Source: Nanobdellota archaeon (GTDB lineage: Archaea; Nanobdellota; Nanobdellia; Pacearchaeales; GW2011-AR1). Taken from it: DNA of 64,000 bases. The notes beneath the pieces were generated by a model, which saw only the letters and a program-made list of their open reading frames with translations, ran no database searches and was not told the origin of the DNA. The DNA lies in assembly GCA_027858295.1 (NCBI GenBank), contig JAQICZ010000014.1:1293-65292 (forward strand), in the 5' to 3' direction. The position numbers and the translations under genes are program-made. Positions 17,336 to 63,920 of the stretch are shown piece after piece; positions within the stretch are counted from its first letter, which is position 1; each line of letters begins with the position of its first letter.

Positions 17336-17336
17336 T

Positions 17337-18128: not shown

Positions 18129-18202
18129 GGCCCCACACCTCCAGGTTTACGCCCCACGGCGAAAAAAAGAAAAAAGGTAAAAATAAAAATAAAACTGTAA
18201 CC

Positions 18203-18928: not shown

Positions 18929-19162
18929 CTTTCCTCTTTTTTCATCCTCCTTTCAATACCTTGTATCTTAAGGTTTATTCTCCCCTTGAGAGATATCACA
19001 CTAATCTATACGTACATATCTTTATAAACATTTCCCAGCTTTTGCCCCCCCGAAAAAGTGAAAAAATAGATTTGCCGAAGACAAATTTGTCCCTAAAAAA
19101 GAATTAACAAATATTATACAGCACCATCAACACTATCAGCATACAATATATGGTATGAAACA

Positions 19163-19239
19163 CTAACGGTCAACGGTTTACAGTTTACAGTCTTCAGTAA
19201 TCAGCACTCAAAACTGACAACTGACAACTGACAACTGTA
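19163..19239. repeat. Heptamer array (11 units) between the giant gene's stop and the family A gene.
   Basis: ctaacgg tcaacgg tttacag tttacag tcttcag taatcag cactcaa aactgac aactgac aactgac aactgta. Confidence 0.85.
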
Positions 19240-19259
19240 AAATTGCAAAGCAATTTTAC
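19237..19259 (-). terminator. Perfect 10-bp hairpin overlapping the stop codon of the 4849-aa gene.
   Basis: GTAAAATTGC aaa GCAATTTTAC. The downstream minus strand includes AGTTTTG within the heptamers. Confidence 0.4.
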
Positions 19260-33805: not shown

Positions 33806-33822
33806 TTTTCCCTTTTAACGAT

Positions 33823-34026
33823 TTATTTAATAAATGACCACAAGTTCATTCGCCCGACTCTAAACCCATTCACCTTTCCAGCAATCTGAAGCATCAAACA
33901 ACGAGTCTGCACAGAATGCCACGGCTTATTTAATTTAATAGAAATATCTTGAGTAGAAACAAGCTGCTCGCTAGAACTTAATAATTTTACAATTTTCCCC
34001 TGTAATTCATCCCCTTTAACAGTCAC
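33823..34026 (-). CDS. Small winged-helix DNA-binding protein (67 aa, GTG start) directly upstream of the giant gene.
   Basis: KIVKLLSSSEQLVSTQDISIKLNKPWHSVQTRCLMLQIAGKVNGFRVGR has a wHTH-like pattern. An AGGGGAAG SD lies 8 nt upstream. Confidence 0.55.
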   Translation of the reverse strand: MTVKGDELQGKIVKLLSSSEQLVSTQDISIKLNKPWHSVQTRCLMLQIAGKVNGFRVGRMNLWSFIK

Positions 34027-34034
34027 TTGATTCT

Positions 34035-34131
34035 TCCCCTAAATTTTTTCATTTAAATCGTTTTCCAATCGATTTAAACTTGCATGAAAAAGTTTTCTCA
34101 TACGGCAAAGCGAATGAGATCCCCAAATCAT
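34035..34131 (-). repeat. Copy of the recurrent upstream module ahead of the wHTH gene.
   Basis: cccctaaatttttt...aatcgatttaaact..tgaaaaagttttctcatacggcaaagcgaatga. The box order matches that at 6090..6190. Confidence 0.8.
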
Positions 34132-34668: not shown

Positions 34669-34689
34669 TCAAAAACTCATAAATTCCTT

Positions 34690-55500: not shown

Positions 55501-55886
55501 TTTTCAACCGTTATACTTTCTCCCCCTACCGCCGAACTATTCATCAAACTTCCAACTTCAACAATATCCTCCTCTCCGTCTTCCAACCCCTTATCACTTC
55601 CATTAAAATCCCCTGCAGAATCTAACGGGTGGATGGGTGGGGCACTGGGATTACTACCCTCAACTTCCAAAATAGAATTATCTGTTACTGGCCCATCTAC
55701 TATCAATCCATCACTAGCACCAACAACTTGTAACTCAATAATTGAATTATCAAAAATCTCCCCTCCCGCCCCAGCAAAAGCTAAGTTCGACATAAACAAT
55801 ACATATATCAAAACACATCCAATTATTGAATGCCAATTTTCCCTTTTCATTTTCCCCATATTTAATCTGATTTTCGAAAAAAACAA
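37527..55886 (-). CDS. Giant surface protein, 6119 aa. The track uses a TTG start at 55886, but the ATG at 55859 or 55850 is more likely.
   Basis: Single uninterrupted ORF with signal anchor IIGCVLIYVLFMSNLAFA. The N-terminal head is paralogous to that of the 4849-aa protein. Four super-repeats are each marked by CSLYG(D/S)W.G.W. There are three DUF2341 modules and a C-terminal FN3-like domain. Confidence 0.9.
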   Translation of the reverse strand: MFFSKIRLNMGKMKRENWHSIIGCVLIYVLFMSNLAFAGAGGEIFDNSIIELQVVGASDGLIVDGPVTDNSILEVEGSNPSAPPIHPLDSAGDFNGSDKGLEDGEEDIVEVGSLMNSSAVGGESITVENDSDVLDKVNESITESNDSSEQVGNESVGAENNSFSSVINESTIALDNLTKKENSSANVSFDFSAGEQVGNVFENETVNNSLEEIFEEEDFTVEIVQGAAEVGQPVRWTKKVYNEGKKVNVKIPKEGKEISYKESDTGTYIATSKKSLSLRSLSVEEVRDIPEVEEVEQGHIEVVYETAAPNKEEKILKNGKEVLVYSEEHYTNVIVSTEIDEALNVRDKREVVINWVEEGVKIQSEKLEDRDENGIYDYVSWDVPHLSNQTFQIIVINLAEHLDVNRNYIEDIYSQVEDLDGVYSPTINDGEFVRITFERELDKTKDITIYPKVINGTPWVEVYEKDGEVMITKFDLLKDDVGNKIYLSGLLGVQDTYDLKVVNGSVQFDYIVDPTATYNSTFGAPYCSVGDSPCVAPTSLLIAKANMGGTAEPNSPNTVDACTDGTSAGTYASDESVENITVTNLGRATFEVGDTIQADIWVYCYGATDNVNVVYSDNAQSPIWTIVGPAFTCAGAGYELVTRNIVLSSRVGDHVVRGVMQYNGNAADTCGNTQTWSDTDDLAFQVLPNAAPSVPTGLTCNGGSCDVVIDGNVQLNCSGSVDPEGDVVTYMVNDTNGNIGSHTGGSSFVWDTSLAPETTGVNFTCEAIDFWGSDSSLGNYTLQSGLTIDHTNPMADFASGTLNDGSVVNANSIFVNISIIEDNFENITFELYDGTGVLNSDTFTDSTRSVTWNGLLSKLYFYNVTVYDKAGHLNVTTTRNITIDTVNPSATLSTPTSNKHSSKRNQNLTADVSDALGLKRAALSIFNSSGSLINTTTVLVSGVVATVGIVYNFVSDGVYSWFYRVSDLADNVYDTTNNTITIDTIPSTIVLKSILNNSGDVDGVMSFKYNVSDVLSSIKNCSLIINNNYVLNDTIVSKGVAESLDYSGLPIGHYNFSVVCYDEAENFAQSEIRFFDVVGVNSFSGNTTDFSTVDLNDVSKFVLENPSYGKISYNQNLNLTGGVDFDSLVVIGEEQVGVNSLVEERMNRSATIEMYNLNYQFVPKVLKDGVICQDCQINSYAGGVLIFNVSSFSTYTLGANSKLQVSDTTEFKTVYPLDNVSFYANYSNLTTGQAIDTASCNISFEDEKVEMVYNASSYLFEYNRNFSTYGAYNYNVSCLGSAFGYEDLKTLNTIVVNFEDLGGSDKLGYQTQSGLYNFVGTDEFIPLDFVVDINSSFVLSQNKGNQENTTAGTSGDPATTSDTSFVSLYLYNSTHIRAQRGNAADGPVVVSWQVLEAMNGEFSVQREVHSYSGTAATTTATIPTPVNVANSMSWFYISTTYTGNNGDLIQFYSDITDANTITFTRGNSGTALNVDFRWVVVSWDIDKINNFAKGYTGAISGPDTAPDCFSIGKTINKSTSILFHQSNSLHLNTGGLDSSTRAGYIQDDNFVCFYDFDGINDAGVKWYVIDLSGATQREEGIHTDWASADYVDDVVFLSSFSRNRSLFFVSGTSNGDGTAKPRHTEWSGFNGGDPVTGIHIERTYGGQNREYAWQVLELPYDENLDAPVFSNPRVNSSFVGLNDIARFSIDVADGTDSIASVNGTVNGGSNGFVSGAGNEWYYDFTCLTDDANVDLTIADAIDDGYPLRYNLTLIGGVATACDAAGPVITFISPDTPLNDTQIGESYFSVNVSVVDANFKNVTFSLYDEMGLMVDNGRFTDTTRGYVFTGLSSGDYYYNVSAYDLSGQLGVSETRKINVDSENPLISFSGVTLADGLIVSGDTITAEVNVVEPNEANITFYLYDSSFNLASTPVAYTDKRRVLPWVLLADGLYYYNVTVYDIYGHSNSTETRTVTLDNGLPIVSYGEGVEADDSYFARNYIYVNVSYVEDNFENITFILSNQSSVISSQTFVDGTKSFNFTGLDDLEYYYNVTVYDKAGNLGNPATRKITLDNSAPVVDFGVLTEADNNNVSHNWVFVDGVVTEPYFSNVTFGLFDNFGNEVVSQTFSDSTRSFNFSGLSTGFYEYNISSYDKAGNLGNSVTRRIGVDVSGPSINIISPQAKAYGNGTNLLLNYSVTDLIAGVNTCWYNVNGGANATTDCLGSSAITVEDGQHTVYFYANDTFGNLGTKQVTFLVSTAGPAVTLNEPANDTVYSVQTLFDFNYSAVDPDGLDYCSLYGDWRGGWHLNQTLKIVAPWYNSSWEKRKTITIDSGSVQSSLTDFPFLVELYDEGLHDFTRSDGADILFTFSDGTTKLSYEMESFNQTYNSTHAHLVAWVKVNLSSVSDMKLFMYYNNSNAINQEDSAGVWNSNYSAVWHMTEINIQDSTANANDGTATSMDSTNVIGARIGSGINFVGSSTDYITTADTPVDFVDDFTISTWMQTTDASGDWAKIIDKLGRWTTGYGIGSKVNAYGFVGYWVSGWGGDPAASFGTVNDGSWHLITSVVEGGVARVYSDGILINTYSAGAGSTITTNDYPLTLGKSANTDSYWTGVLDEVQISSTPRSADWIATSYQNQESPESFYTVSSEEIFEVVKFSLNLDSEGNYKWNVKCNDSLSFIGTAIANYSVSLDLTNPIVDFGVGTLNDGIRVSQGSLYVDALVVETNLKNITFDLYKAGVNVGSQTYSDSTRNYTFTGLSDGIYKYNITVYDKAGRIGNSSTRSVEFDTTKPTGVSNTPGDGYFTKNPTQNLTATIVDSVELKDAMLYIYNSTGNVVFTSLVSLIGMSSATIGVVYTFLYDDVFSWFYRVRDSVDNEYNTTANSIEIDNTAPVITFIAATENDGVVKLQDNIFVNTSMYEKNYKNMTFGLFNDEGIVSPSPNTFSDGTRQINWTNLADDVYYYNVSSYDLAGNVGYSPTRSIILDNIAPMVSFTGATKVNDSVISGTSITVEVSVVEVNEANITFALYDSFGTLAKPLTTSLNGRRNVNWTLIPEGIYYYNVTVVDDVNLKGSTITRKITLDNTAPVVSFSAGTENDSGNKSQNWIYVNTSVVENNFKNITLRLFDNSMSEVSSMIFTDSTRAYNFTGVANGVYYYNVTVYDLAGQKGDTTTRKISLDTVKPVVNFVSPTESDLVVRNRDWIYVNTSVVEASFKEIKFSLYDSDGFNDEAVFTDSTRGYNFTSVSDGNYKYNVTVSDWAGNVANTSTRSIGLDGSGPIVNLIKPKSKTYGYNTSLPLEHTVSDTVSSVDACWWNLDGGTNQTIVCNTATIFDASVAPHTINFYANDTFGNLGFDSVSFFISVTGPAVELLAPANDTFYGSAQDINFSFVANDPDSVDTCSLYGDWAGAWNEKQVYSGDWFDVGYSHRQEVVLTNIGASTLTDFPAYLNISSDHTTSGDYNDLRFFSGTCDSAGAALSYEIEDYSESNGNIWVKISSFGVGENTICMYYGNSDAESDEDALSVWSSAYTSVYHLDQTSGVAYDSLGNWDAEDGITPDSNMNIAGVVGGADYFDGSDYLGTNPEWNVDGAHTYCTWAKFSVGHFGTILEDGGLTDGTGMGVTSTGEFRYAEMYNGVANFLDSGTSYSDNSWHYVCGGHTGSVQFLYVDGELSNSATQGDGLSGTDDARIGSANSANPVFNDNTAHGLIGSLDEIKVSSIDRSGDWINQSYQQVANSADTTTFLSEETFIAFSVGISSEGAYSWNVKCNDTIGYSSFGLDNYIFIMDVTSPVVLFGAGTKVNNSIVGKDWVSFDANVIENNFKNITFSLYDENGLTVDSRQFTDNTRVVNFTGLSSGDYRYNITVYDRAEHFGYSQTRYINLDLSPPTGILASPVNGGYVNNLLQNLTGAFADSTGLLNATLYVFNETGSLIYTSYQNLLGATSATVGLVFTFLKEGIYSWFYKVEDNVGNVYNTANNTLTVDTTKPLIDYSLGVENSGLVFGRENVYVNVTYNEIYFDNLTFRLYDSLGLLFENSFNDGTKEIDWALLPDGFYEYNVTAYDLAGNSNTTETRNITFDNLNPVVDFGAGTKVDGAYGAGDTVYVDTVVTEANEANITFNLYNATGFNVKKNTFSDGRRSISWNLLSEGTYYYNVTVVDKVSHKTSTSTRSIILDNTLPVITYAFGTENNDTSFARDWVYFNVNLVESNFKNVTLTLSNESSIVSSQSFSDTTREYNWTSLSDGTYYYNATTYDKAGNKASTLTRVLVLDNVAPIVDFGVGTLADGINNTDNWIYVNASVVEGNFNNITFRLFDRLMSEVSSKTFTNTTRDFNFTGLASAVYYYNISVSDKAGVVGNTTLRKSGLDYVGPVISLINPKAKAYGYNLSLPLDYVVTDAIVGNDVCWYNLDNGVNTTVSCSGPSNFNTSDGQHTLHFYANDTLGNMNYENVTFLISTTGPAIQLLKPADNVFYSSAQSVVFNYTAEDPDGAVACSLYGDWNGGWHLNQTTDVGWWNSGYSKRKMINITNLDSVVINKGYSMMLTMDTTGSDFKTNGEDVRIVYVEGSTSLELDRHNETAFNNVNTEIWFSIQASIAGFGSDGNYYVYYNNPTATNPPQNESNVFSVYDDFNDGTISNEWTSYNIQTGVGSTTEAGGLLAVSGQGADIWGAEDDQRLVSQPLNGDFIAEAELSSTTWATNAWGKASLIVKDAATQGTNYAMVGDTMGNGMGFQWNYAGNVIGAATSGPTLFRLIKSGSIISSYYSVDGGDTWNQLGVNQDIGVTDPVEIGFSSTSHTTTDFITAYWDFIKVRQLLLVEPTYLAGSEETFVSPLFYLNLSEEGTHYWNVECNDTKGYYTWAVSNYSITFDVTNPVVDFGLNTLVDNINISQNFIYVNSSIVENNYKNITFRLFDESRIEVTSKFFNDSTRDYTFTNLADGTYYYNMTVYDKADRSDYSPTRKIMLDTKAPTGSLSSPDSGVITNNANQNLTGNFADENGLAGVMLYIFNSTGFVYSSPISLGGTLSATVGVVYDFLVDGIYDWFYQAEDSVANLYNTTNNSITIDTTLPVVTFVNPTENSGVYMSQDFIYLNTTVNEINYNNITFNLFDSSANSVSINSFSNSKRDINWTLLPNDEYLYNVTVWDKAGNVNSSETRNITLDTLLPVVNYAGGVEVDSANKSESWVYVNTTVVDTNFANMTFILSNDTSIITSQTFSNGTREINWTGLVDGSYYYNVTVYDKAGHGVSLNTRRINLDTTLPVLSYTVNTEADGYVVERDWIFVETAILENNFKEIRYGLYDGNGLVNETVYNTPVTSINFTASSENKTYQYNVSAYDFAGNVRSVVTRNISLIDVTNPRLILESPQSTNYSYANGIRISYDAIDVHLDKCWYNLDGEVNITLPNCFDTSINVDDFSSHTLELYANDTMGYLNNTSATFFVNSSLIFTPTYRVISGTSYVDGYQEEAVDQIDMSKSFILHTARGGDKGADTLNVLSKFLDVNTIAFENYISGEPVFVEWNLVVGPNISVQRGELDFGSESYIDTSINAVNLSSSFIIVNSRVNSPRSAQNIDGMFSAEFLDDTTIRFSRGVNGSSGELSFQVVDWADISVQSGSLELGVGNSVNNAIINGVDLTKSFLVFSNNINGSNVVDSSMIRGGFETNNNISFERVGTAGNVSINYFVLESDLFDVQSGDYAHLVSTAEQDVSLGSDLINSSRAFNLNSHYNDGSATDYSTSSLTQKIKNNNTLALQKGANAGAGMSTWFAVEMRDLNAPAVELTSPTNSYNFSTYFIPSFGYSFADESSMSNCSLYGSWNGGWHLNQTVYYEVDFASVNVGVGGFYNWTVECYDIYGNLGMTANNTFGAFLPPTRPAFTNITQSANNGTGDIFIDWNASVDALTYRIYAGSDMGALSMIAETANTNYTDTTFVGQRRRFYKVEAWNPSSANISTETYGAHVYTLNHNVVSPVGSITNRNWISFPTNFTSISNANESLGKITGITSISRLDTATQKQVSCNEFSCPESFSCTDTACNFDLKAGEGYEVIMNTSGPVSINWSGVGIVNSPVWVDLVYDESGTRFNKNWIGMTASTVITSASELRASIDFEDAISGWDSASQDSLGQICYPFGPCIGRNFEVNMEEGFEVSMTEDYAWLQQ
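41540..42440 (-). other. DUF2341 plus a different ConA-like (DUF1349-like) jelly-roll, module number 3 of the 6119-aa protein (approximate bounds).
   Basis: WWNSGYSKRKMINITN...YYVYYNN, then DDFNDGTISNEWTSYN..GGLLAVSGQGADIWG..DFIAEAEL..WGKASLIVKD..FRLIKSG..YYSVDGGDTW. Confidence 0.55.
44770..45700 (-). other. DUF2341 plus LamG module number 2 of the 6119-aa protein (approximate bounds).
   Basis: GYSHRQEVVLTNIGAS..FPAYLNIS..DLRFFSG..LSYEIEDYS..IWVKIS..ICMYYGN..VWSSAYTSVYHL, ending in DRSGDWINQSYQQ. Confidence 0.7.
48040..49006 (-). other. DUF2341 plus LamG module number 1 of the 6119-aa protein (approximate bounds).
   Basis: WYNSSWEKRKTITID..FPFLVEL..ILFTFSDG..LSYEMESFN..VAWVKV..LFMYYNN..VWNSNYSAVWHM, ending in PRSADWIATSYQNQ. 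Confidence 0.7.
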
Positions 55887-55977: not shown

Positions 55978-57171
55978 TTATATAGATTTATATCCTCCAT
56001 CTTTATCGTCGTTAAAACCCTTATTACTACTCTGATTCAATGACACATTTTTGTTGTACTCTTTTATTGATTTTATATCAAAAGCACTATCCATTGAGTC
56101 CGAAAAGAACTCCTCTTCCGTCTTTGATTTTGCAAGCAACATCATACCCCAAATTACAAAAACAGCACCAAAGATTATAGTACTTATCACCAGATTGTCT
56201 GAAAGCCCCAAAGCTCCCAAATCTCTTGATATCGCAGATAAATTAAACCCAATCATCAAAAGACCAATCTCCTTCAAGAACTTTCCACCCAAAAACAGTA
56301 ATACTACCGCAAGTAAAAGTGGTAGCAAAATTCCCCCTAGTGTTACCATCGGAGTAACCTTCCCATCGGCACATAAAATCTCTGTATGAAATAATCCCCC
56401 CTCATACACAATCTTCTGATAATCACAATCATAAAACTTAGAGGTTGAAAGATGTCCTAATTCATGAATAGCGACGGTTCCAATAAAAACAAAATTTGCA
56501 AGAATTATAATAAAAGCCAAATGACTAAACAATTTAACCATATATGATTTTCCTACACTCATTTTAACATCTACTGGTATAGAATAAACTTTCAAATCAC
56601 AAATAAGCAAATATAAAAAAAAGAAAAAAAGAATCACTGACGCAATTGTAAGCATATAAAAGTTCCCGAAACCCGCCATAAAAAGAACTACGAGCAACAA
56701 TGAAACAGCAGAATAAACAATCCCAAATAATCCAACTCTACGATAAACATCTGCTCTAATTGAAAATTCTGTAAACAAAATAATACTAAACAAAAAAGAA
56801 TCAACAATAAACAACAGTACAGAAGTATGCGCTACTAAAAAAAGCAAAGGAATTGAAATTAAATACAATGCCAACAAATAATACAACTTCTTATTTTTTG
56901 AGAACATGTAAGACACCTTAAATAAAACACCATTCTGTATCAATAAAAGGATTGCAAACATCACTGAATAATCTGCAAAGGAATATTTCAAATAATCAAA
57001 AAACCAAAAAAAAGAAAGCACCGAGACAACCAAATAACAAAAAGCCGCAACCGCCAGATATCTAACTGCCCTCAAGGCAGAATTTTCATTATAATGAACA
57101 AATAATTTTACCAGCAAGAAAATAAAAATAGCTAAGCTAATAATCCCACCAATCAAAAACATAAAATTCAT
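55978..57171 (-). CDS. Polytopic membrane protein with HExxH in a hydrophobic segment. Possible S2P/M50-like intramembrane metalloprotease.
   Basis: It has about 10 hydrophobic segments. It carries GTVAIHELGHL and a later FNLSAISRDLG, which loosely resembles the M50 motif FNLLP..PLDGG. Confidence 0.45.
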   Translation of the reverse strand: MNFMFLIGGIISLAIFIFLLVKLFVHYNENSALRAVRYLAVAAFCYLVVSVLSFFWFFDYLKYSFADYSVMFAILLLIQNGVLFKVSYMFSKNKKLYYLLALYLISIPLLFLVAHTSVLLFIVDSFLFSIILFTEFSIRADVYRRVGLFGIVYSAVSLLLVVLFMAGFGNFYMLTIASVILFFFFLYLLICDLKVYSIPVDVKMSVGKSYMVKLFSHLAFIIILANFVFIGTVAIHELGHLSTSKFYDCDYQKIVYEGGLFHTEILCADGKVTPMVTLGGILLPLLLAVVLLFLGGKFLKEIGLLMIGFNLSAISRDLGALGLSDNLVISTIIFGAVFVIWGMMLLAKSKTEEEFFSDSMDSAFDIKSIKEYNKNVSLNQSSNKGFNDDKDGGYKSI

Positions 57172-57247
57172 GTTAATGCCACCTTTACTTTGTATTTCTG
57201 TCTATTTGCCTTATCTAAAGACCAATAACTAATAACTAATAATTTAT

Positions 57248-58438
57248 TCATACACTCATCACCGCCCCAAAAACAATATTTCCCTCACATACCCCCCCCA
57301 CCTTTTCAGGGACATAAACTCTCCAATATGTTGATTTATATGCATCCTCGAATAAATCGTTCTGTCTATATTGCAAATTAAAATTATTCGTAAAAATATT
57401 ACTAGTCAAATTGTTGTAGTTGATCTCGAACTCCCCAAGTGTTAAATCCCCAAAAATTGAAGAAGCTAAATTATACTTTTCATAATAAACTGGCAAATTA
57501 TTACCAGTAGAACAATTCATAGCAAGGTTATCTCCGGGTGTTGATCCATACCCATACAAATTCAAATCAACCTCGACATTCCCTCGATTAAGGATAACGA
57601 CTTCAGACTCATTAGAGACTTCCTGGCTAGACAAGTTTCCAAATGAAATAGCCTCTTGAATTTCCAAAGATAGTAAAGGATTAACATTTACATCATCAAT
57701 TCCAGAGCCTGTACTGGATGGATCGTCAACTCTCATCTGACAATTCCAATTTCCAACATTAGCATAATACCAGACATCAAAAGAACAGGTAATCTTAGAC
57801 TGATTTTCATCTCCATAACTATTATTGATTTCACAACTTGAATTTGAATAATGTTTATTATTGTCATTTGTATCTCCAATAAAGGAATTTGAAGTATCAT
57901 AAAATTCAGCAACAGCATTGCTTAAGACTTGTCCTTCATACTCACGAGCAACTCCCTCACAAACAACTTCCCTCGTGAAATTCGTAGCTAAATCTATTTC
58001 ATTTACAGTTAAATTGAAAGAATCATCGACCAAAACAAATTCAAATTCCGGAGCAACATTCAAAGTTAAATTGGGAGCAATATTATATCCGGCTCCAGTA
58101 ACTAATACATTTACAGCACTAGACAACATCTCTCCAGTCGCTTCAAACACACCCACACTTAAAACATCGCCTACTATACAAGGTGTTGCAAGCATTTCAC
58201 AATCAATCAAATAAAAATCATCGGTATAAGAATTACCATTCGGACCAACAACATCACTTGCATTATCGAGCCCATCACTTGTAAAATTCCATAAAGTAAC
58301 AACCTTATTATTTGCACTCCCAGTCCCACTTCCCCCATCAACATACCCAGTAATCCAATGCGCAGAACTCACCATCGGTAAAATAAACAAGAAACTAATA
58401 ACTAATAACCAACAACCAATAACTAGCTTACTTCCCAT
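57248..58438 (-). CDS. Family B secreted protein.
   Basis: The start is placed at MGSKLVIGCWLLVISFLFILPMVSSA (ATG at 58438), preceded by GGGGGATTTTAAGA. The C-terminus is TYWRVYVPEKVGGVCEGNIVFG. Confidence 0.75.
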   Translation of the reverse strand: MGSKLVIGCWLLVISFLFILPMVSSAHWITGYVDGGSGTGSANNKVVTLWNFTSDGLDNASDVVGPNGNSYTDDFYLIDCEMLATPCIVGDVLSVGVFEATGEMLSSAVNVLVTGAGYNIAPNLTLNVAPEFEFVLVDDSFNLTVNEIDLATNFTREVVCEGVAREYEGQVLSNAVAEFYDTSNSFIGDTNDNNKHYSNSSCEINNSYGDENQSKITCSFDVWYYANVGNWNCQMRVDDPSSTGSGIDDVNVNPLLSLEIQEAISFGNLSSQEVSNESEVVILNRGNVEVDLNLYGYGSTPGDNLAMNCSTGNNLPVYYEKYNLASSIFGDLTLGEFEINYNNLTSNIFTNNFNLQYRQNDLFEDAYKSTYWRVYVPEKVGGVCEGNIVFGAVMSV

Positions 58439-58676
58439 TCTTAAAATCCCCCATACAAAATTTCGTAAAAACTTTCCCAAGGGTTTTTACCTGGCTGAAA
58501 TTTTGGCACGCCATATTACCAAAACGAATGGCCGGGATTTTACTTCCCATCCTTAAAATCCCCCATACAAAATTTCGTCAAAAACTTTTCAAAGGGTTTT
58601 TGACCTGCCTGAAATTTTGGCACCCATATACCCAAGCGAATGGTCGGGATTTTACTTCCCATTCTTAAAATCCCCC
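58425..58676 (-). repeat. Tandem 112-bp upstream modules: two full units plus flanking partial copies. Each ends in GGGGGATTTTAAG(A/G)ATGGGAAGTAA.
   Basis: ATG triplets lie at 58438, 58550 and 58662, an exact 112-nt spacing. I estimate about 88% identity between the units. Confidence 0.9.
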
Positions 58677-60829
58677 TTAACCTGCTCAAACAAAGGTAAA
58701 ATCCTTTCTTTAACAGAAGGCGACAACAAATTAAATTGTTTCTCTAACTTTCCAAACAAGACAGCATCCTTTGTTTTCCTGAATTTCTCAAGACCAGCTT
58801 CAATCTCTGAAATCAATATTCCATTATACAAATGCTCGGTCTTCGAATATAACTGATTCCTTTCTTTCCCAGCCAACCTAGCATAACTCATCTTAACCTT
58901 AGAATACATTTCTTTTGCTTTCTTAATTTCACCCGAATCCAACAAATCTTGCGCCTCAGTAATTCTATTTGTTGCCCTAAAATAATCATCAGATAAGCTT
59001 CCATTTCTAAAATAGACAAAATAAATAATCAGCACAACTAAAAGAATGGCCCCAAAGATTCCGAGATAGCCTTGACTCGAAGAGTTAAAGACAGAGAACC
59101 CAGTGATGCTACCACTATCAGAATCTTCTTTTACAACTTTAATAAAACTAAATTCAATCTCTTCCAAATCCGCAAAATTAGTAACCTTAGACAAAACATA
59201 AGAAATTGCCTTAGTATCAGTAGCAAATGAAATAACATTATCACTAACTAAATTGTAATTCCTATTATTCACCTCTATTCCTTCTGCAATTGATGAATCC
59301 AAAACTTCCATAAAATAAGCATCTTCTATACCTTCCAGCTTTGAGTTCAAACTACGCTTCACAATTGAGAACTTTTTACTAGAACTGTCCAGATTTAGAA
59401 CCTCAACATTATAAAATTCACTCTCAACAACCAAAGGTGTCTCTTTCAAAATAGCAGCCGTTTCCTTCATGCTTTTTTCCAGATCTTTTTCGCTAATAAC
59501 TTCATCAATTTCCAGAATTGATTTTCTTTGCTTTTCTTCACTTAATTCCTCTCTTCTTTTTTTCTCGTCTAAAATTGTTAAATACTCAGGAACCCCTTTT
59601 TCAATAACTCCAAGTCTAACTCTAGAAGATTCAATTTTTTTCTCCAAATCTTCTCGTGTTAAATCTTGATCCTTCAGATTCAAAGAACTAATTCTAATAC
59701 TTTCAATTTCCTTTTTTGCATTTTCAATTTCCTTATCAAGTCCCAACAACTTAAACAACATATCCTCAGACTCACTAAAACCCCCAACTGCATCAACCCT
59801 TTCAACCAGATTATCAATTTCAGATAAGAAAGAATCAACTTTCCCCCTAAGCTGCGGATTCAATCCACTATTCAAATCAGCATCATCAAACAAACTAATC
59901 CCTTCGACCTCTCTAGACATGCTTCCTTCATTCCCGGCATCATCCACTGCAGAAACTCTATAATAATAAGTTGTCCCATCTTCTACAGAAGTATCAACAA
60001 AATCCGTATCATCTGTTTCCTCATAATAATCCATATAATCTTCATTTGAAAGTTCAGATCGATAAATTCTATAATCACTAGCATCTTCTACCGGCTCCCA
60101 ATCTAATTCAATCCTACCTTCCTTACTAATTGCTTTGATTTCCGCAACCAATCTCGGCTCAACAAAATCATATGAGAAATAAGCACCCTCAACAACATCA
60201 GTCCCCAATCTTCCCTCTAAATCATTCGCTCTAAACTTAAATGACAAAACACCTTCTTCTAAATTATCAGGCATAACAATCTTTCCTATCCAACTCATTC
60301 CAGCGCCTGTTACAACCAGGTCATTATAACTAACACCATTAAAAGAATATTGAACTATCGGAATACTCGAAACATATTTAGAAGTCTCCACCCCCACTTC
60401 AAGTTCATTATCATTTATGGGCTCTGACTTATCCAAATGAATTTTAGCTGAAATTAAAGAATTAACTCTCAAAGCTACCTCAAATTCTTCAGGATCAGGG
60501 TCATTATCATCAACTTTACATTTTATATAATAATAATATGTTCCATCCTCCAAATCATAGAAACTCTTTTCGTGGCTCGTTCCACCATTCACATCAAATA
60601 AATTAGACATAATACTATAACTATCTCCTGAATCCATCGAGTATCTACAGATTGTTCTATTGTCTGTTGTAATTTTCATCATTGCAGAATTATAGTCAAC
60701 AGTTCTCTCAAAATATCCACCTTCATCAAAATTATAATGTATTGTAAATGACTGATCCTTAGCACTCCCAAAAGCCAAAGTCGCAACTAACAAAAATACC
60801 AAGATCATTATTGATCCTATCCTTCTCAT
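58652..60829 (-). CDS. Type I membrane protein, 725 aa: signal peptide, beta domains, FN3-like domain, coiled coil, TM helix and helical cytoplasmic tail.
   Basis: Signal peptide MILVFLLVATLAFGSA. The FN3-like segment is IELDWEPVEDASDYRIYRS...TYYYRVSAVDDAGNEG. The TM helix is LGIFGAILLVVLIIYFVYF. Confidence 0.75.
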   Translation of the reverse strand: MRRIGSIMILVFLLVATLAFGSAKDQSFTIHYNFDEGGYFERTVDYNSAMMKITTDNRTICRYSMDSGDSYSIMSNLFDVNGGTSHEKSFYDLEDGTYYYYIKCKVDDNDPDPEEFEVALRVNSLISAKIHLDKSEPINDNELEVGVETSKYVSSIPIVQYSFNGVSYNDLVVTGAGMSWIGKIVMPDNLEEGVLSFKFRANDLEGRLGTDVVEGAYFSYDFVEPRLVAEIKAISKEGRIELDWEPVEDASDYRIYRSELSNEDYMDYYEETDDTDFVDTSVEDGTTYYYRVSAVDDAGNEGSMSREVEGISLFDDADLNSGLNPQLRGKVDSFLSEIDNLVERVDAVGGFSESEDMLFKLLGLDKEIENAKKEIESIRISSLNLKDQDLTREDLEKKIESSRVRLGVIEKGVPEYLTILDEKKRREELSEEKQRKSILEIDEVISEKDLEKSMKETAAILKETPLVVESEFYNVEVLNLDSSSKKFSIVKRSLNSKLEGIEDAYFMEVLDSSIAEGIEVNNRNYNLVSDNVISFATDTKAISYVLSKVTNFADLEEIEFSFIKVVKEDSDSGSITGFSVFNSSSQGYLGIFGAILLVVLIIYFVYFRNGSLSDDYFRATNRITEAQDLLDSGEIKKAKEMYSKVKMSYARLAGKERNQLYSKTEHLYNGILISEIEAGLEKFRKTKDAVLFGKLEKQFNLLSPSVKERILPLFEQVKGDFKNGK

Positions 60830-60925
60830 TTTAGTCTTTATCCCCTTTACAATCGAGCCCTACTTGCCCAAATAATCTGGGGGAGTTATCGACTTTTTCA
60901 CCTAATTGTCTGCCCATACTTAATT

Positions 60926-62122
60926 TCATTTTAACCTCCTCAATTTCTCCCTATAAACTCTCTTTTCTCTTCTAACTTTGAAAAACATCATTGCAACAAA
61001 TACAATAAGAACAAAATACAAGAGCGGTAAGAAAGAAAAACTTCTTCCTGTAACATCTATCGCAGAGCTCGCTTCAAATGTTCTCTTCCCATCATAATAA
61101 ACTCTACCACTAATCACATACCTTCCTTCTTTCTGTGGAGTAAAATACATTAAAAATTTCTCAACACTCCCCTGATCCACAATTAATTCTTCACTCTCAA
61201 ACACTTGAACAATCTGACCATTATATGTAGCCTTCCCCTTAAACCTGGCTTTAACGTCTTTTTCTCCCGTATTCTTAAAACTAGCTTCAAACGGAACCGT
61301 CTCTTTTGTCTTAACATCTCTTTTAGATAAAATACTCTGCAAAATTCCCTGAGACTTCAATGCACCCTCGGCTAAAATATCAAATGTCAAAAGACTACTC
61401 TGCAAACAATCCGGCAAAGACAAATCTCCCCAATACTGACCCAATTCAAAATCAGTAGAATCAATTCTAAATTCTATGTCCCGGTCAATAGTTGGTAGAA
61501 TACTCTCCCCAATAAAATTTTCCTTACTAACAAGGTCAATCTGTTCAGAGTCCCAGATATCAAACAAAACTTCTGGACTAAGTCTTACATTCCCCTTATT
61601 CAAAACATTCATTCTTAAAACAACATCATCACCAACTTCCGCAGAAGAAACTTCAAAGTTCTTTGCAAAACAAGCTTTCGACTCAACATCTGTAACACTT
61701 ATAGTTATTGCCAAATCCAAAGTAGATTTAATCTTTCCAACAGCGTGGTCTTCAACACTCTCAGCAATAGACTCCGTAAACACCTTCATGAAACCAGTAT
61801 AATTTCCATTAGGCGTATCTGATGGTGGAATAATTGAAATTTTCAAATACTTTAACTCATTCTTAGAAACCGCAAAAGTTTCCTCCGGATAAGTCAACCA
61901 CTCCGCAATATTCCCACGAGCTTCCAGCCTCACATCAACTGGCTGCTCACTATCCGCAGAAATGGCAATATAGTCCTCTGCATAACCAGAACGCATTACA
62001 TCCTCAAAATTCAACACCGCAGGACTAACCCCAATGTTAACCGCACTCACAAAAGAAAAAGTATGAATTAAAATTACCATTAAGACTAAAGTACGAACTA
62101 AATTATTATTTCTTTTTTTCAT
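60926..62122 (-). CDS. Secreted two-domain beta-sandwich protein with a C-terminal TM anchor (398 aa from the ATG at 62122).
   Basis: MKKRNNNLVRTLVLMVILIHTFSFVSA, then VNIGVSPAVLNFEDV...PNGNYTGFMKV, an Ig-like adhesin or chaperone-like pattern. The C-terminus is LPLLYFVLIVFVAMMFF followed by KVRREKR. The track's upstream 39 codons are module DNA. Confidence 0.7.
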   Translation of the reverse strand: MKKRNNNLVRTLVLMVILIHTFSFVSAVNIGVSPAVLNFEDVMRSGYAEDYIAISADSEQPVDVRLEARGNIAEWLTYPEETFAVSKNELKYLKISIIPPSDTPNGNYTGFMKVFTESIAESVEDHAVGKIKSTLDLAITISVTDVESKACFAKNFEVSSAEVGDDVVLRMNVLNKGNVRLSPEVLFDIWDSEQIDLVSKENFIGESILPTIDRDIEFRIDSTDFELGQYWGDLSLPDCLQSSLLTFDILAEGALKSQGILQSILSKRDVKTKETVPFEASFKNTGEKDVKARFKGKATYNGQIVQVFESEELIVDQGSVEKFLMYFTPQKEGRYVISGRVYYDGKRTFEASSAIDVTGRSFSFLPLLYFVLIVFVAMMFFKVRREKRVYREKLRRLK

Positions 62123-62139
62123 TATTATTTCCATCCAGA

Positions 62140-62235
62140 CCCTAAACCTTTTTCCCCGTTGAAAGTTTTCCAAGGCTTTCACCCTGTCTGAAAAAAGTTT
62201 TCCCATACACCGAAGCGAATGGTTAATTTTAGCCC
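62140..62235 (-). repeat. Copy of the recurrent upstream module.
   Basis: ccctaaaccttttt..gaaagttttccaaggctttc..ctgtctgaaaaaagttttcccatac..gcgaatgg. Confidence 0.8.
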
Positions 62236-62242
62236 CCAAGCT

Positions 62243-62534
62243 ATTTTGTTTTTTATGAGTTCTTCGATATCAGACTTTCGTCATTGACATCAATGATGTT
62301 TTTTGTGAGTACAGCAATAAGTTTTTCAAGTCGCCCCTTATTTTAGAGCGACTCTTTTCCCCTATAGCCGTTATTTGTTTTCGTGAGTATAAAGGGCATC
62401 CGAAGATGCCCAAGGTATCAAAAGTGTGCGAGACACTTCAGTTATTTATAGACTCTGTAATCCGTCACCTCTAACTTTTTACCCAGTCTGCGATTTGTGT
62501 TTGTTTGCGAATATGAATGGGCTCCTTAGAGCCC
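62243..62534 (-). other. ORF-free structured spacer: five hairpins interleaved with four copies of ACTCAYRAAAACAAAT (minus-strand reading).
   Basis: Motif copies lie at 62243..62260, 62297..62311, 62373..62389 and 62493..62513. Hairpins lie at 62281..62296, 62329..62353, 62394..62411 (GGGCATC-CGAA-GATGCCC, which is UUCG on the minus strand), 62422..62438 and 62519..62534. Confidence 0.6.
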
Positions 62535-62581
62535 GTAATCATAAAAAAAAGAAAAAAGTTAAACTAAAAATAAAAATAACC

Positions 62582-63268
62582 TTAATCTAATTCCACGAAA
62601 AAGTAATAGTCTTTTGTATCACTATTACCATGCCCATCTTCTAATACAAGCATCTCAAAATCATGTGACTTATTGTCATACCCTGTTGCGTCGTTTTCTA
62701 AAATAGAAGCAAACACAGCAGCTTCACCATCCCACAATAAAAGCTCTTCGAAACTTGAACCACTTGTCCCTGTACTATCATAAACATTTGTACTTGAACA
62801 ACTATCCAATGTAGACCCCGCAATGATATGTGATCCCGCAGTCCCTACAAAAGTTTCATCAACACCGTCTGTTCCTGTCGCTTGATATGCTGTCTCCAAT
62901 GCTGTTATGTTCGCAGCACTCGCACAAGCAATATTTGACCAATCAACAGTTTGATTTACCGATGCCAAAACCTTCCCTGATGGATTTGCAGCAGACCAAT
63001 TATACATAACTTTTCCAGCCGCATCAGATAGCTCAATTGCACCTGAAACATTACCGAAAAAACCAGTCCAAGTTTGAGTAGTCGTTGACCCTGAGATTAC
63101 TAATTCTGTAACGTTCCCCGCCAAAGCAGGAGTTGAAGTCGCAGCAGTAATAGCAGCAGTTGTTGAATTTTCAACATCAACAGTTGAAGCACCATTAACA
63201 GCTAAAGCAAAGCTCGCACTAAGCAGAACACTCATAATCATTACAGCAAATAAATATATTTTTTTCAT
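62582..63268 (-). CDS. Family A secreted protein, divergent paralog.
   Basis: Signal peptide MIMSVLLSASFALA. It carries TWTGFFGNVSG and HDFEMLVLEDG and ends in YYFFVELD. A GGGGGAAA SD lies directly upstream of the ATG. Confidence 0.8.
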   Translation of the reverse strand: MKKIYLFAVMIMSVLLSASFALAVNGASTVDVENSTTAAITAATSTPALAGNVTELVISGSTTTQTWTGFFGNVSGAIELSDAAGKVMYNWSAANPSGKVLASVNQTVDWSNIACASAANITALETAYQATGTDGVDETFVGTAGSHIIAGSTLDSCSSTNVYDSTGTSGSSFEELLLWDGEAAVFASILENDATGYDNKSHDFEMLVLEDGHGNSDTKDYYFFVELD

Positions 63269-63302
63269 TTTCCCCCAGATTCCCCCTTTTTAACTCTATG
63301 TT

Positions 63303-63920
63303 TTAACTTTGTTCCCCTTTAGCTCTAACAATCTCTCCCAAGATATTCTCAGGGTCATACAATGGCAAAATAGAATCTAACGAAAGCGTAGATAGATTGC
63401 CCTTCGTAATGAAGGAGCAATCTATCTGCTTGTCAAGTGTCTTGATAAATGAGTTTACTTTCTGTTTCACCTCTTTTGACCCAGAAAGAACCAGAACCCG
63501 CGTTAACGAATTCTCCTCTAAATAAACACCCTCTATTTTACCCAAGTATTCATCCAACTTCCAAAACAACTTTTCTATTGGATAATGTAATGTTGAATCC
63601 GCAACCATCCAGATATTCAATATCGCTTTGTGATGTGCGGTTAAGTATAATAGTTTCTTCTCAGCAACGTCTTTCGTTAAAATACTCAGTTGCGCCATCT
63701 CCTGAGTAAGACTATAAACATTTCTGGGCTTGCCTTTTTCAGCAGCCCCAGTTCTCGTTTTATATATAATCCCAGAAACTTCCAAAAGTTTCAACTGCTG
63801 GCTCACGTATGAGACCGTTGTTGATAATTGTTCAGATAATTCGATTGGAGACGAAGGTTTCTTCGCCAAAATCGTTAATATCTCCCACCTCTTTTCGCCC
63901 AGGAACAAATCTATGTTCAT
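63303..63920 (-). CDS. ArsR-like winged-helix transcriptional regulator with a C-terminal domain of unknown function.
   Basis: RWEILTILAKKPSSPIELSEQLSTTVSYVSQQLKLLEVSGIIY is a typical ArsR/wHTH pattern. Confidence 0.65.
   Translation of the reverse strand: MNIDLFLGEKRWEILTILAKKPSSPIELSEQLSTTVSYVSQQLKLLEVSGIIYKTRTGAAEKGKPRNVYSLTQEMAQLSILTKDVAEKKLLYLTAHHKAILNIWMVADSTLHYPIEKLFWKLDEYLGKIEGVYLEENSLTRVLVLSGSKEVKQKVNSFIKTLDKQIDCSFITKGNLSTLSLDSILPLYDPENILGEIVRAKGEQS

What the first reader, a model, noticed from the sequence alone, without database searches (positions are those of the whole stretch)
55978..63920. Second locus repeats the parts list: regulator, family A, two anchored beta proteins, family B, membrane HExxH protein, giant, 654-aa protein
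Read in the minus direction, the order is as follows: ArsR-like wHTH (63303..63920); family A (62582..63268); a 340-bp structured spacer; module; 398-aa two-domain protein with a C-terminal anchor; 725-aa FN3/coiled-coil membrane protein; modules; family B; HExxH membrane protein; 6119-aa giant; 654-aa secreted protein.

The first locus (16328..34026) has wHTH, giant, A, A and B. The recurring co-localisation of A, B, wHTH, module and giant argues for one functional surface-appendage or adhesion system with accessory assembly factors. None of the small components has a name I recognise. Small secreted paralogs alongside an Ig-like TM-anchored protein and a very large surface protein loosely resemble bacterial WxL/DUF916 clusters, but only by analogy.
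Basis: inference. Interest (0 to 1): 0.75.

Follow-up and report, generated by a model that had tools for sequence, protein, structure and literature searches.

The report
DPANN giant-adhesin surface gene supercluster
The genes are real and form one conserved 48-kb cluster of tiny symbiotic (DPANN) archaea that most likely builds a cell-surface attachment complex, in which giant sticky proteins and small secreted proteins share a previously undescribed C-terminal domain.

Summary
All listed ORFs exist on the minus strand. Families A (3 copies) and B (2 copies) are true paralogs. No curated Pfam or NCBIfam model names A, B, the HExxH protein or the 654-aa protein.

In 46 species-level loci of at least 14 kb seeded with A, 98% carry a giant gene and 59% carry B. 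In 30 metagenome loci of at least 12 kb seeded with B, 83% carry A and 90% a giant.

The "two loci" are two halves of one collinear supercluster, window 16328-63920. They are not a duplication: A paralogs are orthologous by position across genomes.

New points:
- The A domain always sits at the extreme C-terminus of proteins from 230 to about 1,700 aa.
- Giant 1 ends in a degenerate copy of the A domain.
- The HExxH protein is a divergent M50/site-2-protease-like intramembrane protease.
- The A model has no structural neighbour in PDB or BFVD.

Most likely this is a Pacearchaeota/Woesearchaeota-specific surface adhesion complex, held together through A domains and matured by the protease. The function is inferred, not shown.

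The 112-nt "module" is a strain-specific repeat, not a conserved part of the system.

The parts
63303..63920 (-). 205-aa ArsR/HVO_A0114-like winged-helix regulator with a C-terminal extension. It is conserved between two family-A genes in block II.
   Evidence: HTH_5 E 8e-7 (29.2 bits, cut-off 22) and HVO_A0114 29.4 bits. Present in 50% of A-seeded loci of at least 14 kb.
62582..63268 (-). Family A paralog of the 'post-wHTH' positional class: signal peptide plus A domain only. It ends in YYFFVELD-COOH.
   Evidence: 388 homologs, all labelled hypothetical, with no Pfam match. Positional orthology is shown. AF2 model: pLDDT 73.9, core 67-228.
62240..62581 (-). Structured, hairpin-rich spacer that includes a cUUCGg hairpin. 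It is lineage-specific, not a conserved part of the system.
   Evidence: Fold z = -5.9. The spacer is only 34-80 bp in many relatives. No Rfam match.
62158..62238 (-). Partial copy of the 112-nt 'module' repeat in the 5' leader of the 398-aa gene.
   Evidence: nhmmer E 3.9e-6.
60926..62122 (-). 398-aa protein: signal peptide, tandem ASH/CARDB-type Ig-like domains, and a C-terminal TM with a basic tail. Optional block with the 725-aa protein and B2.
   Evidence: CARDB matches 11 of 14 members (best E 3.7e-5) and ASH matches 4 of 14 (6.7e-6). TM at 362-380. Sequons are not enriched.
58652..60829 (-).
   Evidence: Weak fn3 and Fn3_SaeA_3rd matches. TM positions. Always follows the 398-aa gene in related loci.
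58427..58676 (-). Tandem 112-nt module repeat, 2.2 copies. It spans the stop codon of the 725-aa gene and the start codon of B2. Copy number is 1, 2 or 4 in three assemblies of the same population.
57248..58438 (-). Family B paralog B2 (396 aa): the long class, with an extra N-terminal domain.
   Evidence: B1/B2 E 8e-58. The 385-421-aa size class always follows the 725-aa gene.
55978..57171 (-). Polytopic membrane HExxH protein, a divergent M50/site-2-protease-like intramembrane metalloprotease candidate.
   Evidence: Invariant H236, E237, H240, C249, C267 and D317. Peptidase_M50 matches weakly in 8 of 30 members (best 0.0025) and M50B in 1 (5.7e-4). The match covers the HExxH region of the model. 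About 8 TM segments.
37527..55886 (-). Giant 2 (6119 aa): signal peptide, conserved N-terminal region, Ig-like repeats (Big_13, Big_3_2, PKD), DUF2341 and LamG. It has its own C-terminal domain, which is not A-like.
35410..37374 (-). 654-aa secreted protein, a divergent member of a family usually encoded between the HExxH gene and the small wHTH/giant pair.
   Evidence: phmmer E 3e-23 to 4e-7 against loci ORFs. Synteny. No Pfam match.
33823..34026 (-). 67-aa small winged-helix protein, encoded immediately upstream of giant 1.
   Evidence: Conserved upstream of giants in related loci. No Pfam hit.
19256..33805 (-). Giant 1 (4849 aa): signal peptide, four LamG_3 stretches, Ig-like repeats, and a CARDB domain (4557-4655) followed by the A-like C-terminal domain.
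19259..19816 (-). Degenerate A-like C-terminal domain of giant 1 (residues 4664-4849). It matches A-profile positions 67-238 and lacks the AGNVTEL segment, both Cys, and the DGVDETF and EDGHG motifs. It ends in FYVELQ-COOH.
   Evidence: hmmsearch --max E 1.2e-6. phmmer with this C-terminus finds family A proteins at E 1e-5 to 1e-7 and the C-termini of giants lying just upstream of A genes. Alignment.
18203..18928 (-). Family A paralog of positional class 'giant+1' (241 aa).
   Evidence: nearest neighbours are G+1 genes, 71-72% identical.
17337..18128 (-). Family A paralog of positional class 'giant+2' (263 aa), from a separate divergent clade.
   Evidence: all 36 G+2 genes fall in one clade.
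16328..17335 (-). Family B paralog B1 (335 aa): signal or anchor plus two beta-sandwich domains. Its start lies 1 nt after the stop of the preceding A gene.
   Evidence: 112 homologs, no Pfam match. AF2 pLDDT 91.2. Only generic two-Ig-domain matches in the fold search.

Best explanation
Window 16328-63920 is one conserved supercluster of Pacearchaeota/Woesearchaeota-type DPANN archaea. It most likely encodes a multi-protein cell-surface attachment complex.

**Adhesive parts.** The giants carry LamG, DUF2341 and Ig-like repeats and are the proposed adhesins.

**Assembly and anchoring module.** The roughly 215-aa A domain is always at the free C-terminus. It occurs alone in four positionally conserved small paralogs. 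It also occurs at the end of passenger-bearing proteins of about 340-1,700 aa, and in degenerate form at the end of giant 1.

**Proposed mechanism (inferred).**
1. A domains associate with one another. This ties the giant to a defined set of small A subunits.
2. The Ig-like B proteins and, where present, the membrane-anchored 398-aa and 725-aa proteins form the membrane-proximal base.
3. The M50-like intramembrane protease matures or releases subunits. It would cut their N-terminal signal-anchors, which have the N-in/C-out orientation that site-2 proteases prefer, near the invariant Gly that follows the hydrophobic segment.
4. The two wHTH proteins regulate expression.

**Shown:** gene content, paralogy, conserved synteny, obligate C-terminal position of A, the A-like end of giant 1, and surface-type features.

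**Inferred:** A-A association, the protease substrates, and adhesion.
For: **Conserved synteny.**
- Of 46 A-seeded species-level loci of at least 14 kb, 98% carry a giant, 74% carry two or more A genes, 59% B, 57% the HExxH gene and 50% the wHTH.
- Of 30 B-seeded metagenome loci of at least 12 kb, 83% carry A and 90% a giant.
- Gene order is fixed. Block I is [wHTH67]-giant(A-like end)-A-A-B. Block II is A-wHTH205-[A]-[398-725-B395]-HExxH-[654]-wHTH67-giant.
- Block II runs straight into block I in several genomes, for example L081, L053, L060 and L085.

**The A domain.**
- Among 1,325 clusters at 50% identity, the 150 listed all end within 3 residues of the protein's C-terminus, apart from a few apparent fragments. 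About 17% of them carry N-terminal passenger domains, up to 1,724 aa.
- The C-terminus of giant 1 matches the A profile (E 1.2e-6) and finds A proteins by phmmer.
- A paralogs are ancient and position-specific. In 124 of 148 cases the nearest neighbour from another locus has the same positional class. All 36 G+2 genes form their own clade. This argues for non-redundant subunits.
- Nearly all A-domain proteins seen are encoded inside the cluster. Only 1 of 46 large loci has an isolated A gene.

**Surface features.**
- Signal peptides and anchors are present on all non-regulators.
- Sequons are enriched about 1.5- to 3-fold in B, the 654-aa protein, the giants and two of three A copies, and not in cytosolic controls.
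- LamG, Ig-like and CARDB domains are present.

**The protease.** The HExxH protein has invariant HExxH and Asp residues and recurrent weak M50 hits over the correct region of the model.
Against: - There is no experimental or structural evidence for A-A association.
- The A model has only moderate confidence (pLDDT 73.9, from a 45-sequence alignment). It matches nothing in PDB or BFVD, so its fold gives no functional clue.
- The M50 assignment is below Pfam's threshold (16.5 bits against 27.2). A profile search of PDB sequences found nothing.
- Giant 2 has no A-like end, so A cannot be the only attachment route.
- The 398/725/B395 block and the 654-aa gene are absent from many loci, so they are not core components.
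- The retrieved loci are the best 80 matches in each scan. Very distant relatives were not sampled.
Confidence: 0.5

Rival explanations
1. Polar fibre or pilus. A proteins are repeating subunits that polymerise, for example by strand exchange through the conserved AGNVTEL segment. Giant 1 has the A core but lacks that segment, so it can only accept a strand and sits at the distal tip. B forms the base or adaptor. The gene order giant-A-A-B mirrors the assembly order.
For: - The A-like domain of giant 1 starts at profile position 67, after the conserved N-terminal segment.
- That segment (residues 24-64) is highly conserved yet has low confidence in the monomer model.
- B's fold weakly resembles two-domain tip adhesins of chaperone-usher pili (CfaE, CsuE, FimH) at E 1e-4 to 1e-3.
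- Small paralogous subunits are encoded right after the adhesin gene.
Against: - The A model matches no pilin or any other solved structure (best E 0.9).
- In proteins of 340-1,724 aa the whole A domain, including the 'donor' segment, is internal and follows passenger domains. It is therefore not a free N-terminal extension.
- The low confidence may simply reflect the shallow alignment.
- No chaperone, usher, sortase, or pilus ATPase/peptidase gene was seen in the cluster.
- There are four equally conserved paralogs rather than one dominant major subunit.
- B's matches have TM-scores of 0.33 or less and are generic Ig tandems.
Confidence: 0.22
2. Sorting signal. The A domain is a C-terminal secretion or attachment signal, functionally like the T9SS C-terminal domain, sortase or archaeosortase signals. 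The cluster's membrane protease recognises it and perhaps removes it, and cargo is then fixed to the envelope.
For: - A has a strictly C-terminal position with a conserved extreme C-terminal motif (YYFYVELE-COOH).
- A dedicated membrane protease is encoded in the same cluster.
- Passenger domains of very different kinds (beta-helix, Ig-like) precede A.
Against: - Most family members are A-only proteins with no cargo.
- A-bearing genes are concentrated in the cluster rather than scattered through genomes.
- A is about 215 aa, with conserved Cys pairs and acidic motifs. It looks like a folded functional domain rather than a tag.
- CHU_C hits are noise (3 of 45 members, E 0.05).
- A has no C-terminal TM or PGF-type motif.
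- M50-type proteases cut within membrane helices, and the A domain has none.
Confidence: 0.1
3. Lattice. The small A proteins, with B, form the S-layer-like surface lattice of these archaea. The giants are plugged into it through their A-like ends.
For: - The S-layer protein of these lineages is unknown (my own knowledge, not searched here).
- A proteins carry conserved acidic motifs (DGVDETF, EDGHG) of the kind that often bind Ca2+ in lattices (the Ca2+ link is inference).
- Both A and B are predicted glycoproteins.
- The same domain occurs on the small proteins and on anchored giants.
Against: - No abundance data exist.
- Four divergent paralogs in fixed operon positions next to regulators and a protease look like a specialised organelle rather than a bulk envelope protein.
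- The fold matches no known S-layer protein.
Confidence: 0.06
4. No functional unit. The genes are merely neighbouring surface-protein genes, or the second locus is a recent local duplication of the first.
For: Strong strand bias and generally dense packing of surface-protein genes in this contig. Other surface proteins lie at 327-3098 and 6990-9890.
Against: - Order and content are conserved across dozens of species with A identities of only 37-59%.
- Paralogs are positionally orthologous and not recent duplicates. A copies within the window are 31-44% identical to each other, against 57-72% to their positional orthologs.
Confidence: 0.02

Closest known systems
WxL / Csc cell-surface complex clusters of Lactobacillales (WxL proteins with WxLIP = DUF916/DUF3324 proteins)
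   Same: - Clusters encode both small and very large secreted proteins that share an obligately C-terminal domain of about 200 aa.
- They include a protein with a signal peptide, tandem Ig-like domains and a C-terminal TM anchor (compare the 398-aa protein).
- Several paralogous sets occur per genome.
- The proposed role is non-covalent surface display and adhesion.

The description of the WxL system rests on my own knowledge of that literature.
   Different: - There is no sequence relationship. No WxL hit was found, and WxLIP_HBD matched in 1 of 14 members at E 0.17.
- The hosts are archaea without peptidoglycan.
- This cluster adds an M50-like protease, two wHTH regulators, family B and giants of 4.8-6.1 thousand aa.
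Donor-strand (chaperone-usher-type) pili, including archaeal threads and bundling pili
   Same: - An adhesin ends in a subunit-like domain that lacks the N-terminal segment of the free subunits.
- Several small paralogous subunit genes lie directly downstream.
- A two-beta-sandwich protein (B) resembles tip adhesins weakly.
   Different: - The A model does not match any pilin fold in PDB.
- No chaperone or usher equivalent is present.
- The putative donor segment is internal in many family members.
Site-2 protease / Peptidase M50 family
   Same: - Polytopic membrane protein with HExxH at the end of a TM helix and an invariant downstream Asp.
- Weak M50 and M50B profile hits over the HExxH region.
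   Different: - Scores are below Pfam's cut-off.
- There is an extra N-terminal block of about six TM segments and two invariant Cys after the motif.
- No PDZ or CBS domains appeared in the Pfam scans.
- No PDB sequence match.
Archaeal 'huge proteins' with Laminin_G_3 domains (PMC11573180)
   Same: Giants 1 and 2 carry Laminin_G_3 (E 2e-68 and 5.5e-20) and Ig-like repeats. The paper reports this as the commonest archaeal huge-protein architecture, 'function not understood'.
   Different: The paper does not describe the accessory families, the shared C-terminal A domain or the conserved supercluster.
Pacearchaeota lineage-specific protein-family modules without annotation (Castelle et al. 2021, PMC8204110)
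   Same: The paper reports lineage-specific, mostly membrane or extracellular families of unknown function in Pacearchaeota. Families A and B plausibly fall among these.
   Different: In the passages read there is no gene-cluster, domain-position or mechanism analysis. Whether A and B are among those families was not checked.

Membership tests
WxL/Csc surface complex | C-terminal WxL domain (Pfam WxL) in the small and large secreted proteins | tested here: not met
   No WxL hit for any A protein. Tested on 3 window copies at E<=0.1 and on 45 family members at E<=5.
WxL/Csc surface complex | WxLIP protein with DUF916 (PGBD) and DUF3324 (HBD) domains and a C-terminal TM | tested here: not met
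   The 398-aa family has the same architecture (signal, two Ig-like domains, TM). However, only 1 of 14 members touches WxLIP_HBD, at E 0.17, and none touches PGBD.
Chaperone-usher / donor-strand pili | Subunits with an incomplete Ig-like pilin fold completed by a neighbour's N-terminal strand | tested here: inconclusive
   The A model has no PDB neighbour (best E 0.9). The N-terminal segment has low confidence but is internal in multi-domain members. No multimer prediction was possible.
Chaperone-usher / donor-strand pili | Periplasmic chaperone and usher, or an equivalent assembly platform, encoded in the operon | tested here: not met
   No PapD, usher or related Pfam/NCBIfam hits in any cluster protein.
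Peptidase M50 (site-2 protease) | HExxH within or adjacent to a TM helix, plus a downstream conserved Asp as the third metal ligand | tested here: met
   HELGH at 236-240 directly after TM 217-235. H236, E237, H240 and D317 are invariant in 30 sequences.
Peptidase M50 (site-2 protease) | Significant match to the Pfam Peptidase_M50 model (gathering score 27.2 bits) | tested here: not met
   The window protein gives no hit. 8 of 30 relatives hit weakly (best E 0.0025; 16.5 bits in L004).
T9SS-type C-terminal sorting domain | CTD model match (for example CHU_C or Por_Secre_tail) and dispersed cargo genes | tested here: not met
   CHU_C matches in 3 of 45 members at E 0.05. A-bearing genes are clustered, not dispersed.
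ArsR/SmtB-type winged-helix regulators | HTH_5 domain above the Pfam cut-off | tested here: met
   29.2 bits against a cut-off of 22, residues 9-54. The NCBIfam metalloregulator subfamily cut-off is not reached (31 against 55), so metal sensing is not implied.
Archaeal LamG-type huge surface proteins | Laminin_G_3 domains in a protein of several thousand residues with a signal peptide | tested here: met
   Giant 1: 4 stretches, E 2e-68. Giant 2: E 5.5e-20, plus DUF2341.

The most novel reading that the evidence does not exclude
The A domain is a new archaeal C-terminal surface-assembly domain with a fold not seen in solved structures. Together with family B and a dedicated site-2-protease-like maturase, it defines the host-attachment organelle of Pacearchaeota and Woesearchaeota. 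This would be a DPANN-specific machine, unrelated by descent to pili, WxL complexes or sortase systems, that displays 5,000-6,000-aa adhesins and takes up roughly 48 kb of a very small genome.
Probability: 0.3. Interest if true: 0.8.

Novelty: new variant of a known kind. Interest (0 to 1): 0.66.

Why it matters
How Pacearchaeota and Woesearchaeota, which are abundant, uncultured, ultra-small archaea, attach to hosts or surfaces is unknown. Their huge LamG proteins are explicitly described as not understood (PMC11573180).

This analysis turns an anonymous stretch into a defined, testable system:
- a fixed parts list of about ten families;
- an obligate C-terminal domain linking the small proteins to the giants;
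- a candidate maturation protease and two regulators.

It supplies profiles for annotating at least 1,300 clusters of 'hypothetical' proteins. It also names the specific complexes to predict, purify or look for by cryo-ET.

Tried and rejected
1. **Free N-terminal donor strand in A.** Rejected as stated. In proteins of 340-1,724 aa the same segment is internal.
2. **A domain shared among B2, the 654-aa protein and the giant-2 C-terminus.** This appeared after one profile iteration. The B profile hits neither the 654-aa protein nor giant 2, and BLAST shows nothing, so I read the cross-hits as probable contamination of the iterated profiles.
3. **Remote homology A-B and B-398.** hhalign probabilities were 39% and 27%, covering only a generic 'V.N.GNV.L' Ig motif.
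4. **Curated families for A, B, HExxH and 654.** Pfam, NCBIfam and PDB sequence profiles gave nothing usable.
5. **Structural neighbours of A.** PDB and BFVD gave none. AlphaFold DB was not available.
6. **The 'module' as a component of the system.** Rejected. It is found only in this organism's assemblies. It also occurs at 6039-6271, outside the cluster, and at 16122-16276, just past the end of B1. No Rfam match.
7. **The 340-bp spacer as a conserved RNA.** Not conserved in relatives.
8. **Literature.** Searches for a prior description of the cluster found only general statements.

Full report
**1. What is there**

The window comes from a MAG labelled Nanoarchaeota archaeon (locus tags PF542_022xx, contig 75.5 kb). 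It has about 35% GC and a strong strand bias.

Reading the minus strand from 63920 down to 16328, the ORFs are:

| Gene | Coordinates | Size |
|---|---|---|
| wHTH | 63303-63920 | 205 aa |
| Family A, A3 | 62582-63268 | 228 aa |
| 398-aa protein | 60926-62122 | 398 aa |
| 725-aa protein | 58652-60829 | 725 aa |
| Family B, B2 | 57248-58438 | 396 aa |
| HELGH membrane protein | 55978-57171 | 397 aa |
| Giant 2 | 37527-55886 | 6119 aa |
| 654-aa protein | 35410-37374 | 654 aa |
| Small wHTH | 33823-34026 | 67 aa |
| Giant 1 | 19256-33805 | 4849 aa |
| A1 | 18203-18928 | 241 aa |
| A2 | 17337-18128 | 263 aa |
| B1 | 16328-17335 | 335 aa |

- The A copies are paralogs (E 4e-48 to 2e-31). So are the B copies (8e-58). 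The giants share a 46%-identical N-terminal region.
- Every non-regulator starts with a hydrophobic signal or anchor. The 398-aa and 725-aa proteins have a second TM near the C-terminus. The HExxH protein has about eight TM segments.

**2. None of the small families is named**

- Pfam and NCBIfam give nothing for A, B, the HExxH protein or the 654-aa protein. Scanning 45 A and 43 B relatives one by one gives only noise.
- The large protein collection holds 388 A and 112 B relatives. All are 'hypothetical', and every named source is Pacearchaeota, Woesearchaeota, Nanoarchaeota or an unclassified 'archaeon'.
- A profile search of 1.84 billion cluster representatives finds 1,325 A clusters.

**3.

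I fetched 77 loci around A from species-representative genomes. I fetched 79 loci around B from metagenomes. I then annotated their ORFs with profiles built from the window's proteins.

- In A-seeded loci of at least 14 kb (n=46): 98% have a giant, 74% have two or more A genes, 59% have B, 57% the HExxH protein and 50% the 205-aa wHTH. Only one locus has an isolated A gene.
- In B-seeded loci of at least 12 kb (n=30): 83% have A and 90% a giant.

So A, B and the giants do not occur apart, and the refutation fails.

**4. One supercluster, not two repeats**

Two blocks recur with fixed order:
- Block I: [wHTH67]-giant-A-A-B(about 330 aa).
- Block II: [about 1,200-aa A-bearing protein]-A-wHTH205-[A]-[B]-[398-725-B(about 395 aa)]-HExxH-[654-like]-[wHTH67]-giant.

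In several genomes block II runs directly into block I, for example L081, L053, L060 and L085-87. The window has the same layout, with an extra giant (giant 2) after the HExxH gene.

The A paralogs are not recent copies. For 124 of 148 A genes, the nearest relative in another locus occupies the same position (before wHTH, after wHTH, giant+1 or giant+2). The giant+2 class forms a separate clade, 36 of 36. The window's A1, A2 and A3 each group with their positional class.

Flanking housekeeping genes are also syntenic: TyrRS lies next to B in the window and in L003. This argues against a mobile element.

**5. New observation: A is an obligate C-terminal domain, and giant 1 ends in one**

- In all 150 best representatives, apart from a few apparent fragments, the match ends within three residues of the protein's C-terminus.
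- About one in six is longer (343-801, 1,635 and 1,724 aa). In these the whole A domain follows passenger domains such as beta-helix repeats or Ig-like domains.
- The last 186 residues of giant 1 match A-profile positions 67-238 (E 1.2e-6).
- Used as a query, the giant-1 C-terminus finds A proteins (E 1e-5 to 1e-7). It also finds the C-termini of giants that end just upstream of A genes in other genomes.
- The alignment shows shared W..FYGN, NW, ILWD, YD[FY]E..V and FYVEL[EQ]-COOH motifs. The giant's copy has lost both conserved Cys and the DGVDETF and EDGHG motifs. It also lacks the conserved AGNVTEL segment.
- Giant 2 ends in a different domain.

**6. Structures**

- **A.** pLDDT is 73.9 from a 45-sequence alignment. 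The core (residues 67-228) is beta-rich with two short helices, and residues 24-64 have low confidence. There is no neighbour in PDB (best E 0.9) or BFVD (best E 0.2).
- **B.** pLDDT is 91.2, with two beta-sandwich domains. It matches only generic two-domain Ig proteins: RbmA, the CfaE/CsuE/FimH adhesins and AgI/II C-domains, at E 4e-5 to 1e-3 and TM-scores of 0.33 or less.
- These results fit extracellular structural or adhesive proteins but identify no family.

**7. Other parts**

- **HExxH family.** H236, E237, H240, C249, C267 and D317 are invariant. Eight of 30 members hit Peptidase_M50 weakly and one hits M50B. The hit covers the HExxH part of the model. I read it as a divergent site-2-protease-like intramembrane metalloprotease. 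Membership by Pfam score is not met.
- **398-aa family.** This is the best conserved of the accessory families aligned (54% mean column identity). It consists of ASH/CARDB-type Ig domains plus a TM anchor.
- **Giants.** They carry Laminin_G_3, DUF2341, CARDB, Big_13, Big_3_2 and PKD-like domains.
- **Sequons.** N-glycosylation sequons are about 1.5- to 3-fold over compositional expectation in A1, A3, B1, B2, the 654-aa protein and both giants (A2 shows none). They are not enriched in the 398-aa and 725-aa proteins. Cytosolic controls have 0-1.

**8. Mechanism**

My best reading (confidence about 0.5) is a surface attachment complex.
- A domains associate with one another. This links giant and mid-size passenger proteins to a fixed set of small A subunits.
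- B and, where present, the 398-aa and 725-aa membrane proteins form the base.
- The M50-like protease processes N-terminal signal-anchors. These have the N-in/C-out orientation that site-2 proteases cut. The A family also has an invariant Gly just after the hydrophobic segment.
- The wHTH proteins regulate expression.

Conserved linkage, the shared C-terminal domain and surface features are shown. The interactions and the protease substrates are inferred.

The main rival (about 0.22) is a polar fibre with giant 1 at the tip. The giant lacks the N-terminal A segment, which fits that idea. However, the segment is internal in many family members, and no pilin-like fold or assembly machinery is present.

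A sorting-signal model (about 0.1), an S-layer model (about 0.06) and mere adjacency (about 0.02) fit less well.

**9. Comparison with known systems**

These also have small and large proteins sharing a C-terminal domain, plus a TM-anchored tandem-Ig protein.
- Every membership feature that could be tested fails.
- The literature at hand notes archaeal LamG giants as 'not understood' (PMC11573180). It also notes unannotated extracellular Pacearchaeota-specific families (PMC8204110). I found no description of this cluster or of the A domain.

**10. The 'module' and spacer**

- The module is a 112-nt unit with three hairpins.
- Its first 25 nt hold both the stop codon of the 725-aa gene and the start codon of B2.
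- The number of full copies is 1, 2 and 4 in three assemblies whose flanks are 99.98% identical. This is either real variation or an assembly artefact of short reads.
- Other copies lie at 62158-62238, about 34030-34117, 16122-16276 and 6039-6271. None is found in other species' loci.
- The A3-to-398 spacer is strongly structured (z = -5.9) but is only 34-80 bp in many relatives.
- Both features belong to this strain, not to the system.

**11. Verdict**

- The mechanism is plausible but untested.
- The families have no curated model, and I found no published description of them.
- The kind of system, a surface-display cluster with a shared anchoring domain, has known analogues. I therefore rate it a new variant of a known kind, with moderately high interest.

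Noticed in passing
window 34681-34961 (minus-strand fold) and 12430-12590: Arrays of 6-10 consecutive short hairpins with variable stems and a constant C-UUCG-G / CCGAAG loop. The motif recurs about every 23 nt in the 12.5-kb array and every 20-48 nt in the 34.7-kb one. One array sits in the 1.38-kb gap between the 654-aa gene and the small wHTH (281 nt, -101.9 kcal/mol). The other lies directly after the stop of the 100-aa gene at 12634-12936 and ends in a hairpin plus a T-run. The UUCG sense is on opposite strands in the two arrays. No credible Rfam match.
   Followed up: partly
window 58427-58676; L001 14593-14704; L002 5349-5796: The 112-nt tandem repeat between the 725-aa gene and B2 has 1, 2 or 4 full copies in three assemblies of the same population (flanks 99.98% identical). 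Each unit encodes an overlapping 40-aa mini-ORF whose ATG lies 8 nt before the previous TAA, which gives a chain of translationally coupled mini-ORFs. This may be real copy-number variation or an artefact of short-read assembly.
   Followed up: partly
window 327-3098 (+): A 923-aa ORF that probably continues beyond the window start. It has an Ice_binding-like domain (E 9.5e-72), Ig repeats 38-45% identical to the giant-2 repeats, and a C-terminal TM anchor. A 285-nt tandem repeat lies at 1759-2287. It is another surface protein built from the same repeat type as giant 2.
   Followed up: partly
window 6990-9890 (+): A 966-aa secreted subtilase (Peptidase_S8, E 4e-36) with a weak match to giant-2 repeats. 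It could process surface proteins. This was not examined.
   Followed up: no
L001 1-9350 (beyond window end, past 64000): Upstream of the 205-aa wHTH, this genome has a DnaJ / Fe-ADH / GrpE / DnaK insertion. In other genomes a 'pre-wHTH' A gene lies directly next to the wHTH. Here that A gene (about 240-265 aa) sits about 7 kb further on, next to a gene of over 614 aa.
   Followed up: partly
L097 (whole locus, 15256 bp): The contig is a near-perfect inverted duplication of a B-B-398-673aa-624aa block (mirror-image gene order on the two strands). It is probably an assembly artefact or a hairpin-like contig.
   Followed up: no
window 13495-14403 (-): A 302-aa protein with a bacterial histidine-kinase sensor / dCache-like extracellular domain (E 4e-19) and apparently no kinase domain in the ORF. 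This is an orphan sensor domain near the cluster.
   Followed up: no
window 10531-10659: A 7-nt (GTCAACG) tandem repeat of about 17 copies just upstream of the 150-aa ORF 10035-10487. A shorter AACTGAC repeat lies at 19212-19237, just downstream of the giant-1 stop.
   Followed up: no
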